A stretch of DNA of 43,798 nt from Nemertoderma westbladi. Its lineage: Eukaryota > Animalia > Xenacoelomorpha. This document shows, piece after piece, positions 849-43,506 of this stretch. The notes below the pieces were generated by a model. That model did not search any database. It saw nothing but the letters and a program-made list of their open reading frames with translations, and had not been told where the DNA came from. Location of the stretch: the NCBI GenBank assembly GCA_032718475.1, contig JAUCBJ010006367.1, positions 1 to 43,798 on the forward strand, read 5' to 3'. How positions within the stretch are numbered: position 1 is the stretch's first letter; every line of letters starts with the position of its first letter. The position numbers and the translations under genes were made by a program.

Positions 849-1665
849 ATGGATCGAGTTATTCATAACGAATACATAAGTTTAGATAATTTTGCTGAAA
901 ATGGAGAGCTAATTTCGGGCCATCAACACAACGATGGCTGTGTGTGCGTGCCGCCAGTAGAATGCACCGGTACCAACACGACTAACGCCAACCTGGAAAT
1001 AGATACGGACGAAGAGTATGGAGATACATTGAATTCTAACTACGAGAACCCCAGCGCTTCGCTCTCAATCGCTGATATTGTTCATCATAAAGGCAAAAGT
1101 AAACAAAGTAAAATACTGGTATTGTTGAAGATCGGTTTTTTCGTTGTAATAATCCTTGGGCTCATTATCCCCATAACACATCTCTACAAACAAGTTGAAT
1201 ATCTTGAGGAAAGGATAAATCTATGCAAATGCAGAAAACAAGATGATAATTCCAACTTGGGTTCTACAATAAAGCAAAGCTTAAAATCACAGATACTACC
1301 GACAAACAGCGTCAATAAAAGTGGCCAATTAACAAATATAACATCCCAAAATGAGATCAAAATGGTTCAAGCTAAACTTGACGACTTAATCGAATCTTTG
1401 GTTGAAAAGAAGGCGAATGCGAGTAGGAATATATCGTTAGCAATTACCACCTCAGACGATTCCGATATTCGCATACTACAAGAGGAGGTCGATAGCTTGA
1501 TTGAGACGTTGAATGGGTTAAACAGGATCGAAAGACGTAACCAGGATGCCATCAACGCCCTTCAGAAGAACGTCGATGGTTTGCGCATCATTTACCGAGA
1601 CCAATCAGTAACCAAATGTCTATCTGGGACGAAGGAATACAGTCGCACCCTAAAATCGACATCAG
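849..1665 (+). CDS. Exon 1 of a type II membrane protein: acidic cytoplasmic tail, TM helix, coiled-coil neck, start of H-type lectin domain
   Basis: ORF 849..1670; hydrophobic ILVLLKIGFFVVIILGLIIPI after basic KGKSKQSK; heptad-rich neck; phase-1 donor TCAG|GTTAAA at 1665/1666. Confidence 0.8.
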
Positions 1666-3188
1666 GTTAAATTTAAACACTAAATATAATTTATTATAAC
1701 AGCAGTAGATTCAGTTATATTATCGGATCCTACTTCAACTTACAGTTTACTTCTAGCCAACTCAAACGTATAGTTAGTTGTTGTGGTTTCCTCTGATAAG
1801 CCCACCTTTTTCCAGTAGCTACTGTATACTCTAATAGCTTCCATTGAACGAACAGTACTTGTCTTGTATCTTCTTTTGATAAGCCACTTTTCCAGTAGCA
1901 GTTACTGTACTATGTTTCATTGGTCCGTACTTGTAGCTTGTTTTGATGATACTGTAGCACCAATAACAACATTTCGTGCTATTGGTTAGTTGTAAATTTT
2001 GTGTAGGATCTGTCTGACTTTAATTGTGTTTGTTTTATGTATTAGTAATAGTTTGTGACATTGAACCGAAACCCCTGTAATTGTGGAATTTTTTGGTGGC
2101 ATCAATCTTCTTAGTCAAACGGCAACCGGTTCGTGGGTCGGACCTTCCCTCAGCTCGAGGCACATTCCCGTGTACTGAGCGAGGCGTATACAGTAGCTCA
2201 AACATTGCGCAAACACCCAACACAATACTCTGCCAGCTTGAAGTGAGTGTAAACAACGAAATAGTAAGGTTTTCATTTCATTTTATAACATTTCGTCCTT
2301 TAGCGGCAGACTGGAGAACTGTCGAGGCCCGGGCCCGCAACACTTTGGAGTTTAGACAGACTACATGTGTGCGTACCAGGTTTGGCTTAATTTCATCAAG
2401 AAATGACTGATTAATTCTATTAACTTTGTCGGGTTTAATTAAAGGTGTCATTTCGAAAATTTGTACGCCTAAATATGACCAAAAGTTGAAATATTTGAGA
2501 GGCTTCCAGACACCATCAGTTCAGCAGTCTCACGCTAGAGGAATACATGAACAAACCTTAAACGTTCTCCCATTTCTTTGTGTTTATTCCGTTCAAACTG
2601 AAACTAGGCACATTCGTACTATACCATTCTCATTACCCGTGTCTTTAAATGGAAGCAAGTCTGCAGTTTTCCAGGCTGCCGCTAGATGGAGTAATGTCTG
2701 ATAGTAAAACATTCTCTCATTTCGTTATTTATAATCCGTTAAAGCTGAAACTTTTCAGATCTGTAACTACTTGAACACAGCATACGTCTTTGTGGGTAAT
2801 GGTCCTTGTCTTCTGAATTTCTTCTCCAGTCTGCCGTTAGAGTCCAAAATGTCTGAAAGTGGATTCAATCCAGTTAACCTGAAACTTTACATATAATATG
2901 TACGTCATTGTGGAGGGAGACGCTTATGGATCTGCAGTTCTCCATACAGACGCCAGAGGATAAAATGAAAAGCTTCTGCCATTTCGTGTTATTGTTTACA
3001 ATCCTTCCGACCTGATTGATACTTGTTACATATTCTCTATGCTGATAGAGGTAAATTACATCAGGGGAAATCCGCTTACATTATGTTTATAATTCTTTCG
3101 AGTTGACCTTGACACTTACCATAAATTATCTCACGTGCTGCGCGATATGTATATATATTATATATTTAATTTTATTATACATCCATAG

Positions 3189-3448
3189 GTGACACCAGTA
3201 GAAAAAAATCTGCTTATATATGGGTTAGCTTTAGCAGATATTTCAAAGAAAGACCGGAGGTTATGGTGGGCACGGCTGGCATGGAATACGAGACCAGATC
3301 AAAAGCAATGAGCGGGGCATACAATCACCTAGCATACTACATAAGTGTAACAGAGATATACACCCATGGCTTCAGATTGAGGTATACCGTATGGGACTAC
3401 ACGGAGTCGTTATGGTTTTATGTAAACTGGATGGCCTGCGGAAAGTAA
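3189..3448 (+). CDS. Exon 2 of the same gene: H-type lectin domain (spliced product 358 aa)
   Basis: Acceptor CCATAG|GT is in phase with exon 1; reads GDTSRKKSAYIWVSFSRYFKERPEVMVG...VTEIYTHGFRLRYTVWDYTESLWFYVNWMACGK*, matching the H-lectin pattern F..xF...P.V...GF....W......V.W.A. Confidence 0.75.
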
Positions 3449-3566
3449 GATGGGATGAATAAAAACACTTTCAGTTTCATATACAGCAATGATTTGTCGT
3501 TACAGTTCGATATCACAAACTTTGTGTCGTAAATATTAAATAACAAACAGATACTATGATTCTATA

Positions 3567-3795
3567 CCTGGTTTTCAATAAAAACACAGGTTAGAGAAGG
3601 GCTGAATCTAACCAAAACAATAAACTAATTAGTATCTGCACAGCTTAGAAGAGGGAAATACGCGCTAAAAAAAAACATTTAATAAAGATAAATTTAAAAA
3701 ATAAAAATATTTCATATATAAAATACCAATAAAATTTCGTATAAAGAAAAAAAAAAGCGATAAGTGAAAACCTGGTATATATTCTTCACATAGGC
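3567..3795 (+). mobile_element. Partial copy of the ~280-bp MITE also at 17392 and 41023
   Basis: Shares CAGGTT..AGAAGGGCTGAATCTAACCAAAACAATAAAC and the right TIR (..TTCTTCACATAGGC). Confidence 0.75.
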
Positions 3796-41022: not shown

Positions 41023-41300
41023 GGCCCATGTGAAGAATACCAGACTTTCTGCCGTTATATTTCACTTTGCAGTTTACCCCCATAAGTGAAGAATACCAGG
41101 TTTTCACCAAAACAGGTTACAGAAGGGCTGAATATAACCAAAAAAATAAACGAATTAGTATATGTACAGGTTATAAGACAGAAACAAGCCCTATAAAACA
41201 CTTAATAAAGATACATTTAAAAAAATAAAAATCTTCATATATAAAATTTCAATAAAAAGTCGACCGAAAAGTGAAATCCTGGTATTCTTCACATGGGCGG
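41023..41300. mobile_element. ~280-bp MITE, full copy
   Basis: TIR GCCCATGTGAAGAATACCAG; 7-bp direct flanks TGACATG. Confidence 0.88.
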
Positions 41301-41948
41301 TGACATGTTTATAGCCTTTAACGCGGTATTTCGCTCAGCAGGGGCAAAATAAAAATTATTTATGTTCATTATTACATCATTGCTATAAATAACTTGTCAG
41401 AGAATACATTCCACGTCACGTCCAAGGCCACTTATCCATTTCTGCGTGCGATATATGAATAATTCAAACACTACAACTGCCAAGTTACAGCAAGATTCGC
41501 TGTTACCTGTCAATAATTGCAATTAATTAATATCAGGTAACTCCCACACCCAACAGTCAACGCAAGTAAGTATACATTTGTTGTATATCAATTATTAATA
41601 AATTGTAAAGGACAAAAATGTTTTGCTTGCCAGGGCCAATTCGACCTATTCCGTTAAACCCAATGTTGTTATTGGTGGCTTGTCTGCCAGAAATAATCCG
41701 ATGACGCAATAATCCCTTGGTTGCTTAGTAAGAGTTAAAGCTAACAATTTTCAACCAATAGCGTCTCTGGTATTCTGAAAAGCCAGCTGTGTGGGCTCTC
41801 ACTATGGCAGTAATGGTGGTTCGGTTGTAGTGGTTAGCTGGGAGATATATTTGGCTTTCCTATTAGGCGCTGTACTACTGTACATAGTAAAGATGTGGAT
41901 TGTTCCTGTTGATAGGTGTTGCTTGTCAACCATTGGTTAATATGGGGT

Positions 41949-42003
41949 GTCATGTGACAGTCCAGTGGTTGATATAAAAGAAGTTTGGAAGGATTTCGTC
42001 ATC
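41949..42003 (+). promoter_or_regulatory. Putative cathepsin L core promoter: CLEAR/M-box, TATA and Inr
   Basis: GTCATGTGAC 41949-41958, TATAAAAG 41973-41980, Inr-like TCATC with A at 42001 (28 nt after TATA start); possible 5'UTR intron 42056-42450. Confidence 0.6.
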
Positions 42004-42486
42004 TGTTTTTTTTGTTTACAAACATAATCTACTTCCAAGTAAAGTTACAGCTTAGGTAAAGCGGATAAACCCCGGCAGCCCGGTGCTGCAATTAACATTG
42101 AAAAATTCGTGGACGAGTAATCCTAGTTTGGTACCGTTACTTACAAATGCGATACAAAATGCTATATTTTTATTAATTTACGAGTTTGTACAGTGAATTT
42201 GTTGAGGCTATCGCCATGTAGGATTGTATAGGCCTACCGGTCGGTACCGGTACCTGTATTATGTATATATTTGGTATATTATTTTAGGGTTTCTTTTTGG
42301 TCAGGCCTTAACCGTTAACACTAATTAATAATAATGAACTGAATGCATTATTGTTCATAATATAACCAAAATATAGATAGCGCTTAACATACTGCAGTAC
42401 TGATTTATTAAAGAACTCCATCCTGCCATTTGCCATTGTTCTATATTCAGTAAATTTTCGTGTTACAAATACTGAAATACTCAACG

Positions 42487-43506
42487 ATGAAGTTATTACT
42501 ATTAGCTGCGGTTCTCTTCGCAACAGTTTCTCTAGTATTGAGCCGATATCTTTCAGTAGGATCGCCTTCTTTGGACGACGAATGGGAGCTGTGGAAGCGG
42601 TTGCACAGCCGGGACTACCCTCACATCAACGAGGACTCAAAACGCCGACTCATATGGGAGAACAACCTCGAGCTCATTAACCAACACAACCTGGAGCACG
42701 ACGTTGGCAAGAAGACTTACCGACTGTCACTCAACCACCTGGCCGACCTCACCAACAACGAGTTCCGGAAACTAAACGGATTCCGAGGTCGGGCTCGTCT
42801 CGATTCCGGCAAGGTTTACTTCACCCCGGGCGATGAATCTCTCCCCAAGTCCGTGGACTGGCGCGATAAGAACCTGGTGACGCCGGTGAAGAACCAGGGG
42901 CAGTGCGGGAGTTGTTGGAGCTTCTCTGCGACGGGGTCGCTAGAAGGACAAATAAAACGGAAGACGGGGAAGTTATTGAGTCTCTCGGAGCAGCAGTTGG
43001 TGGACTGTTCAGGTAGCTACGGGAACCACGGCTGCGAAGGCGGGATAATGGACGACGCGTTTACCTACATCAAGGCGAAGGGTTTGGAGACGGAGGAGAG
43101 TTACCCGTACGAGGCGCAGGACGGTGAGTGCTCGTACGATCGGGGGCGAGTCGCGGCTAACGACACGGGATTTGTCGACGTCCCCGGGGGCGACGAACGC
43201 GCGTTGCGTCGGGCCGTGGCCACGGTCGGCCCGGTCTCGGTCGCCATCGACGCGGGACACACGAGTTTCCAGTTCTACTCGTCCGGCTTGTACGACGAAC
43301 CGCAGTGCTCGGATGCCCAGCTGGACCACGGCGTGTTGGTCGTCGGTTACGGGAGGATGGGGGTGGCCGACGCGGGGGAGGGCAGCTACTGGTTGGTAAA
43401 GAACAGCTGGGGGGAGACCTGGGGCGTCAAGGGCTACATTTATATGTCGCGAAATAAAGATAACCAGTGCGGAATCGCATCGTCCGCATCCTATCCCGTA
43501 GTCTAA
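42487..43506 (+). CDS. CTSL: Cathepsin L-like cysteine protease, 339 aa, intronless CDS
   Basis: Signal peptide [17 protein letters not shown]-like and LNHLADLT prodomain; [10 protein letters not shown] (Cys), LDHGVL (His), KNSWG (Asn); first ATG at 42487 (track start is GTG). Confidence 0.96.

What the first reader, a model, noticed from the sequence alone, without database searches (positions are those of the whole stretch)
849..43506. Systematic antisense nesting: every host gene carries opposite-strand guest genes, mostly with intronless CDS
Seen directly: MGAT1 (-) lies in AIMP1 intron 3 (18906-24549) and OXA1L (+) lies in the centrin intron 35934-39585. Inferred because the flanking host exons are outside the window: cathepsin L (+) in the upstream centrin intron and the H-lectin gene (+) in the BLTP1 intron after this exon. 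All four guests are antisense. OXA1L and cathepsin L are multi-exon in vertebrates but uninterrupted here, whereas the centrin exons break at the positions I recall for CETN2. Inference: retroposition-driven relocation of housekeeping genes into TE-expanded introns, or selective intron loss in nested genes.
Basis: partly seen in the sequence, partly recalled or inferred. Interest (0 to 1): 0.7.

Follow-up and report, generated by a model that had tools for sequence, protein, structure and literature searches.

The report
Dense cluster of backward nested genes
In an unidentified animal, two small genes sit backwards inside introns of two other genes, as spliced RNA shows, and a third and possibly a fourth likely do too; this is a crowded example of the well-known nested-gene layout, likely made by old RNA-derived gene copies landing in long, repeat-filled introns.

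Summary
Partly confirmed. The window holds seven protein-coding genes. Two public runs that behave as RNA splice AIMP1 across MGAT1 and centrin across OXA1L, so these antisense nestings are shown. Cathepsin L is very likely in the upstream centrin intron: centrin's 5' part lies nowhere in the window. The H-lectin gene in BLTP1 is unproven: the one RNA contig over the BLTP1 donor reads through unspliced, and the lectin gene is itself spliced. OXA1L and cathepsin L have unbroken reading frames; MGAT1 is single-exon in birds too. The pattern is textbook: 71-78% of nested pairs in flies and mammals are antisense, and guests are typically short and intronless. Three of three antisense has probability 0.36 at that rate, so 'systematic' is not supported by one window. 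Retroposition fits, but no poly(A) run, convincing target-site duplication or close parent copy was found. What stands out is the density (3-4 of 7 genes) and that some guests are conserved housekeeping genes. No genome was held and the clade is unresolved, so the genome-wide rate is untested. Earlier scan notes shown hold no dense-nesting case in this genome, and two single nested genes in other genomes.

The parts
849..1665 (+). H-lectin gene, coding exon 1 (membrane-anchor-like stretch and coiled-coil-like stalk by inspection); RNA-like contig starts at 720
   Evidence: ORF; spliced to 3189 in X4 and X5
3189..3448 (+). H-lectin gene, coding exon 2 with H-type lectin domain; spliced product 358 aa
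   Evidence: PF09458 E 1e-6; model; joint
8009..9023 (-). BLTP1 first coding exon (338 codons), donor at 8008; putative host of the lectin gene, next exon not in the window
   Evidence: PF20413; X4 contig 7791-8992 unspliced
16443..30484 (+). AIMP1 (host): coding exons 16443-16667, 16881-17073, 18724-18905, 24550-24718, 30318-30484; 311 aa
   Evidence: models; joints and loose ends
18906..24549 (+). AIMP1 intron 3 (5,644 bases) that holds MGAT1
   Evidence: exon 3 joined to exon 4 in X4 and X5
22044..23417 (-). MGAT1 (guest), one unbroken reading frame of 457 aa
   Evidence: PF03071 E 7e-140
20395..22093 (-). 31-base minisatellite, about 55 copies, made of the last MGAT1 codons and stop
24725..29737 (+). 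59-base satellite, about 87 copies, made of the AIMP1 exon-4 end and donor; fills intron 4
   Evidence: first copy used
30811..39714 (-). Centrin (host): exons 39586-39714, 35796-35933, 30811-30900; 5' exons outside the window
   Evidence: models; joints in X4 and X5
35934..39585 (-). Centrin intron (3,652 bases) that holds OXA1L and a high-copy LINE fragment
   Evidence: joint 35933-39586
36245..37546 (+). OXA1L (guest), one unbroken reading frame of 433 aa
   Evidence: PF02096; 34% identity to Owenia protein; unspliced X5 contig 36700-37645
37860..38516 (-). 3' part of a LINE-like reading frame (family label RTE recalled), summed depth about 50,000 times single copy in X1
42487..43506 (+). 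Cathepsin L (guest by inference), one unbroken reading frame of 339 aa
   Evidence: PF00112 + PF08246; unspliced X4 contig 42287-43582

Best explanation
These are ordinary nested genes: MGAT1 and OXA1L lie backwards inside spliced introns of AIMP1 and centrin, cathepsin L likely does too, and OXA1L and cathepsin L likely arrived long ago as RNA-derived copies inserted into long repeat-filled introns. Steps: (shown) hosts are transcribed across the guests and splice them out; OXA1L and cathepsin L appear as unspliced contigs in RNA-like runs; most non-coding space in this window is intron and is full of repeats, including reverse-transcriptase relics. (Inferred) a LINE reverse transcriptase copied spliced mRNAs; because 63-82% of local non-exonic space is intron, inserts mostly landed in introns; same-strand inserts were purged because their splice and poly(A) signals disturb the host, leaving antisense survivors; the events are old enough that poly(A) tails, target-site duplications and close parent copies are gone. 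MGAT1 may have been intronless before it moved. The lectin-in-BLTP1 case is about 65% likely and needs no retroposition.
For: Splice joints and loose ends in X4 and X5, absent from X1 and X2. Unbroken ORFs and colinear contigs for OXA1L (946 of about 1,300 coding bases region) and cathepsin L (whole CDS). Mouse Oxa1l has 10 coding exons (PMC12185910, passage). 21 of 30 bins repeat-level depth; LINE fragment about 50,000-fold; RVT_1 hit. Intron share 0.63-0.82. Literature: 71.3% and 73.4% opposite-strand in two Drosophila species, nesting often by RNA-mediated duplicates (PMC5174743 passages); 74.3% human and 77.8% mouse opposite-strand, internal genes typically short and intronless (PMC8467205 passages); retrogenes that replaced their parents are known (PMC3548309 passages).
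Against: No run of 8 or more A after any of the three guests in the stretches scanned. No convincing target-site duplication: one 16-base AT-rich pair flanks OXA1L but is 1 of 10 similar chance-level pairs in that intron. No second copy at 90% identity or more: single contigs at single-copy depth over OXA1L and cathepsin L, so no parent was seen. In Drosophila only 32-37% of opposite-strand guests are intronless, and 75% of newly nested pairs were already on the same chromosome with a median gap of 10.8 kb, which points to local rearrangement as a common route. One recent mammalian survey that includes non-coding genes found only a slight opposite-strand bias (PMC11694760 passages). Typical guests are young and tissue-specific, whereas OXA1L is a conserved housekeeping gene. 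Intron content of OXA1L and cathepsin L in relatives is unknown.
Confidence: 0.5

Rival explanations
1. The guests were neighbours moved into the introns by local DNA rearrangement (inversion or transposon-driven movement), and their introns were lost separately, in place, by cDNA recombination or as part of a lineage-wide thinning of introns.
For: No retroposition hallmark and no parent seen. Drosophila nestings often arise from near neighbours. The putative host BLTP1 has a 1,015-base unbroken first coding exon, where the human gene has several small exons (recalled). [quoted passage not shown] The lectin guest keeps an intron.
Against: AIMP1 keeps four coding introns and centrin at least three, so loss is not uniform. 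Loss of all of about nine OXA1L introns at once is most simply one RNA-mediated event (argument as in PMC3548309).
Confidence: 0.27
2. A lineage-specific process has relocated many housekeeping genes as parent-replacing retrogenes into antisense introns genome-wide.
For: 3-4 of 7 genes nested in 44 kb: P(3 or more of 7) = 0.004 at a 5% guest rate. Guests look single-copy. Very high LINE load.
Against: One window, picked from about 250,000; P rises to 0.09 at a ctenophore-like rate of 16.5% (2,357 nested genes seen in PMC8527503; the gene total used is recalled). Only two genes carry the intron-loss signal. None of the earlier notes shown for this genome reports nesting (8 shown of 55, 57 and 62 that fit).
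Confidence: 0.15
3. Nesting itself selected for loss of the guests' introns, to shorten the guest transcript and cut polymerase collisions.
For: 3 of 4 guests have unbroken coding regions while both proven hosts keep introns.
Against: In Drosophila the intronless excess is in same-strand, not opposite-strand, guests; the lectin guest is spliced; MGAT1 is single-exon in birds.
Confidence: 0.05
4. For the fourth pair only: the lectin gene is not nested, because this BLTP1 piece is a short or truncated gene that ends near 7790 (stop at 7950).
For: The X4 contig runs through the donor to 7791 and has 20 unlaid letters after an AAA on the minus strand, compatible with a poly(A) tail (letters not shown). 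No spliced form listed.
Against: Intact 338-codon frame with about 41% identity, homology runs to within 13 bases of a canonical donor and relatives are 4,000-5,000 aa; the read-through tail matches nothing; X4 also holds other intronic contigs, so unspliced RNA or DNA is present in that run.
Confidence: 0.35

Closest known systems
Nested protein-coding genes of Drosophila and mammals (PMC5174743 and PMC8467205, passages read)
   Same: Small guest wholly inside one host intron, opposite strand (71-78% of pairs), short and often intronless, several guests per host possible.
   Different: Published guests are mostly young, tissue-specific duplicates and 4-10% of genes take part; here 5-7 of 7 genes take part locally and OXA1L and MGAT1 are conserved housekeeping genes with no close second copy seen.
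Nested intronic genes of the ctenophore Hormiphora californensis (PMC8527503, passages read)
   Same: High local density of guests in a non-model animal (2,357 guests in 1,654 hosts; 12.24% of exonic bases), many flanked by transposons.
   Different: Many ctenophore guests are parallel to the host and some are doubly nested; here all are antisense and none is doubly nested. The window's clade is not known.
'Orphan' retrogenes that replaced their parents (PMC3548309, passages read)
   Same: Intronless, intact, apparently single-copy conserved genes without a visible parent.
   Different: Parent loss was not testable here; the 25 human cases were not discussed as nested (0 hits for 'nested' in that paper).
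Intronless cathepsin L-like genes (Hu and Leung 2006; title only, from a reference list)
   Same: An active cathepsin L gene without coding introns.
   Different: Genomic setting of those genes not seen; cathepsin L is a multigene family, so this copy need not be the only one.

Membership tests
Nested (intronic) gene | Guest lies wholly inside one intron of a host whose spliced transcript joins the flanking exons | tested here: met
   MGAT1 in AIMP1 and OXA1L in centrin: joins in X4 and X5
Nested (intronic) gene | Same, for cathepsin L in centrin | tested here: inconclusive
   306 further 5' bases of the centrin contig have no listed place in the window; the flanking exon itself was not located
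Nested (intronic) gene | Same, for the lectin gene in BLTP1 | tested here: inconclusive
   Donor and missing remainder support it; only unspliced read-through seen
Nested (intronic) gene | Guest is its own transcription unit | tested here: inconclusive
Retrogene | Lacks introns that the parent or orthologs have | tested here: met
   OXA1L unbroken versus 10 coding exons in mouse; cathepsin L unbroken versus multi-exon vertebrate genes (recalled). Not met for the lectin gene; uninformative for MGAT1. Close outgroups not available
Retrogene | Genomic poly(A) relic at the 3' end | tested here: not met
   No run of 8 or more A in 37540-37800, 43500-43798 or 19900-20400; expected to decay in old copies
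Retrogene | Target-site duplication | tested here: inconclusive
   Only chance-level short direct repeats
Retrogene | Intron-bearing parent elsewhere in the genome, or shown to be lost | not testable with these tools
   No genome held; DNA depth excludes only copies at 90% identity or more
Lineage-wide nesting trait | Genome-wide guest rate and strand bias above other animals | not testable with these tools
   No genome held; clade unresolved

The most novel reading that the evidence does not exclude
In this LINE-rich, deep-branching animal, essential single-copy housekeeping genes such as OXA1L have been replaced across the genome by retrocopies that live antisense inside introns of other housekeeping genes, so that a large share of the core gene set is nested and co-expressed with its host.
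Probability: 0.15. Interest if true: 0.62.

Novelty: new member of a known kind. Interest (0 to 1): 0.27.

Why it matters
As it stands it is a clean, RNA-supported but ordinary case of nested genes, useful mainly as a warning for annotation: gene finders that forbid overlaps would miss MGAT1, OXA1L and cathepsin L or split their hosts. If the density and the housekeeping nature of the guests held genome-wide, it would be a natural test of the transcriptional-interference model, which predicts that broadly expressed guests in broadly expressed hosts are purged, and of how often retrocopies replace their parents in animals with a heavy LINE load.

Tried and rejected
Whole genome: none held, so no genome-wide count, paralog search or window extension. 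Exact search of metagenome contigs with a 25-base cathepsin L pattern: 0 matches. Related cathepsin L loci (80 kept of 595 confirmed): mostly 1-2 kb transcript-like contigs, not analysed further and not used. Exact protein look-up: 0 of 4 in the collection. Homolog searches gave no close relative (MGAT1 best about 56%; cathepsin L about 62%; OXA1L 4 hits, 31-40%), so the clade is unresolved. I guessed a xenacoelomorph and read passages of two genome papers as comparators (PMC10565955: 3.3-6.4 exons per gene, 53-70% repeats; PMC11521371: mean intron 394 bases; 0 hits for 'nested' in either); the guess is not established and is not used. A paper search for nested genes with that clade name found 0 papers. 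No run is on record as RNA ('no RNA holder listed'); X4 and X5 are treated as RNA only because they carry GT-AG joints. X4 has no cover over the OXA1L coding region and X5 none over cathepsin L: no weight given. CpG ratio and third-position GC did not separate guests from hosts cleanly (cathepsin L GC3 0.74, MGAT1 0.57, OXA1L 0.46, lectin 0.45; hosts 0.36-0.47). The first downstream-BLTP1 profile started too far along because of a misaligned end; redone with the same null (best E 1.9; positive control E 8e-73). Fragment ends among BLTP1 relatives were considered as evidence of exon borders and rejected: they follow conservation and first Met. Assis et al. 2008 (PMC3380635) was not available and is known only through the two later papers. 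No supplements were read; those of PMC8527503 hold per-genome nesting rates that bear on 'ordinary for the clade'.
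Full report
Anatomy. The window is AT-rich animal DNA with seven protein-coding genes. Pfam names MGAT1 (GNT-I, E 7e-140), OXA1L (60KD_IMP), cathepsin L (Peptidase_C1 plus I29) and a BLTP1 N-terminal piece, and the H-type lectin, tRNA-binding (AIMP1) and EF-hand exons. One centrin exon equals centrin-2 residues 98-143 and AIMP1 exon 4 matches AIMP1/EMAP-II. 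Exon models with GT-AG borders give open frames for AIMP1 (five coding exons, 311 aa), centrin (three exons, residues from about 55 to the end) and the lectin gene (two exons, 358 aa). That human CETN2 has introns at the same places is recalled, not tested. No close relative exists in the protein collection, so the clade is unknown, and no genome is held.

RNA evidence. Eight runs were listed, five holding the stretch, none on record as RNA. Four were laid on 30250-43798. X4 and X5 carry the joints 30899-35795 and 35933-39586 with CT..AC ends; X1 and X2 do not, so X4 and X5 behave as RNA and no processed centrin copy is seen in DNA. The second joint skips OXA1L. Only X4 and X5 were laid on 500-20380: both join AIMP1 exons 1-2 and 2-3, and both leave exon 3 at 18905 with letters equal to the first 30 bases of exon 4, skipping MGAT1. 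These two nestings are therefore shown. X5 holds an unspliced 946-base contig over 36700-37645 (OXA1L, 3' two-thirds) and X4 an unspliced 1,297-base contig over 42287-43582 (whole cathepsin L frame).

The two inferred cases. The 640-base X4 centrin contig has 306 bases beyond 39716 with no listed place in the stretch, and no listed joint (tables are cut, but the two other centrin joints head the list); six-frame reading and an EF-hand search show no centrin N-terminal piece in 39715-43798. Cathepsin L is thus very likely in the upstream centrin intron, provided the assembly is colinear across the repeats between 39716 and 42185, which no DNA contig bridges. For BLTP1, the 1,015-base exon ends at a canonical donor, homology to 4,000-5,000-aa relatives runs to 8022, and profiles of the following 600 positions find nothing in the window. 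Against this, the only contig over the donor (X4, 7791-8992) is unspliced and has 20 unlaid letters at its far end, after an AAA on the minus strand. X4 also holds other intronic contigs, so pre-mRNA, an intronic poly(A) isoform or a truncated gene all remain open. I put nesting of the lectin gene at about 65%. The lectin gene is spliced in both runs, so it is not intronless.

Is it more than chance? All-antisense has P 0.125 for three and 0.062 for four guests at even odds, and 0.36 or 0.26 at the Drosophila rate. Passages read give 71.3% and 73.4% opposite-strand pairs in two Drosophila species, nearly 10% of genes in nested structures, and a frequent RNA-mediated origin (PMC5174743); 74.3% in human and 77.8% in mouse, 4.3-8.7% of genes nested in seven vertebrates, guests typically short and intronless (PMC8467205); only a slight bias when non-coding genes are included (PMC11694760); and 2,357 guests in 1,654 hosts in a ctenophore (PMC8527503). 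Density is the more unusual part: three or more guests among seven genes has P 0.004 at a 5% rate (my halving of the 10% figure) and 0.09 at 16.5% (ctenophore; gene total recalled), before allowing for selection of this window from a very large scan. Locally 63-82% of intron-plus-intergenic space is intron, so small inserted genes would mostly land in introns.

Intron loss. [quoted passage not shown] MGAT1 is single-exon in birds: a 456-aa protein sits on a 1,424-base contig (P0036). So the signal rests on two genes. The putative host BLTP1 also has an unusually long first coding exon (human structure recalled as many small exons), so intron loss may not be confined to guests.

Mechanism. Reverse-transcriptase relics are plentiful: RVT_1 at 17736-17981 (1 of 4 pieces scanned) and a LINE-like frame at 37860-38516 in a bin whose summed depth is about 50,000 times single copy (a rough figure, not a copy number); 21 of 30 bins in 30250-43798 are at repeat depth. 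OXA1L and cathepsin L are each covered by one contig at single-copy depth in X1 and X2, so no copy at 90% identity or more exists. No poly(A) run and no convincing target-site duplication were found. The best reading is old RNA-mediated insertion into long introns with survival of antisense inserts (0.5); local rearrangement with separate intron loss is the main rival (0.27); a genome-wide relocation process is possible but unsupported by one window (0.15); intron loss caused by nesting is unlikely (0.05).

What is in print. Ten literature searches showed the general pattern well described and listed no paper on these particular host-guest pairs; none of the searches named the pairs directly, and most subscription journals are not covered. 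For all papers cited I saw search listings and matched passages only, no whole texts or supplements. Earlier scan notes describe many exon-edge satellites in this genome, nothing near this window, and two single antisense nested genes in other genomes; they are unchecked leads.

Verdict. A real, RNA-supported cluster of two proven, one very likely and one uncertain antisense nested genes; a new member of a known kind. Interest 0.27.

Noticed in passing
window 20395-22093 (-): A 31-base minisatellite of about 55 copies is built from the last MGAT1 codons and stop codon (TAG in 47 of 54 units matched, TAA in 5). It sits at the end of an intronless coding region, so exon-edge arrays in this genome may track the edge of constrained sequence; but each unit also carries a donor-like GT motif, so a terminal intron is not excluded.
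   Followed up: partly
window 24725-29737 (+): 5-kb satellite (59 bases, about 87 copies, 85 donor motifs) made of the AIMP1 exon-4 end and donor; X4 and X5 splice from the first, unique copy. Same kind as many earlier notes on this genome.
   Followed up: partly
window 30316-30899: One X5 contig joins the AIMP1 last exon and the centrin last exon without a gap, a hint that the convergent 3' ends overlap; X4 shows them as separate contigs.
   Followed up: no
window 42286-42288: The cathepsin L contig in X4 begins at an AG preceded by a T-rich tract, so a 5' untranslated intron or other splice acceptor is possible.
   Followed up: no
window 7791-8008 (-): Possible intronic polyadenylation of BLTP1 that would give a 358-aa short form ending at the stop at 7950; rests on 20 unlaid letters that were not shown.
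   Followed up: partly
window 2755-3048 (+) and 15654-16397 (+): Low-depth GT-AG joints in X4 suggest a minor extra exon in the lectin gene and a minor upstream non-coding exon of AIMP1.
   Followed up: no
window 42487-43506: Cathepsin L is much richer in G+C (0.575; third positions 0.735) than the other six genes; unexplained.
   Followed up: no
window 849-3448 (+): The lectin gene encodes a 358-aa protein with a hydrophobic stretch near residues 91-113, a coiled-coil-like stalk and a C-terminal H-type lectin domain; exon 1 has no Pfam match.
   Followed up: no
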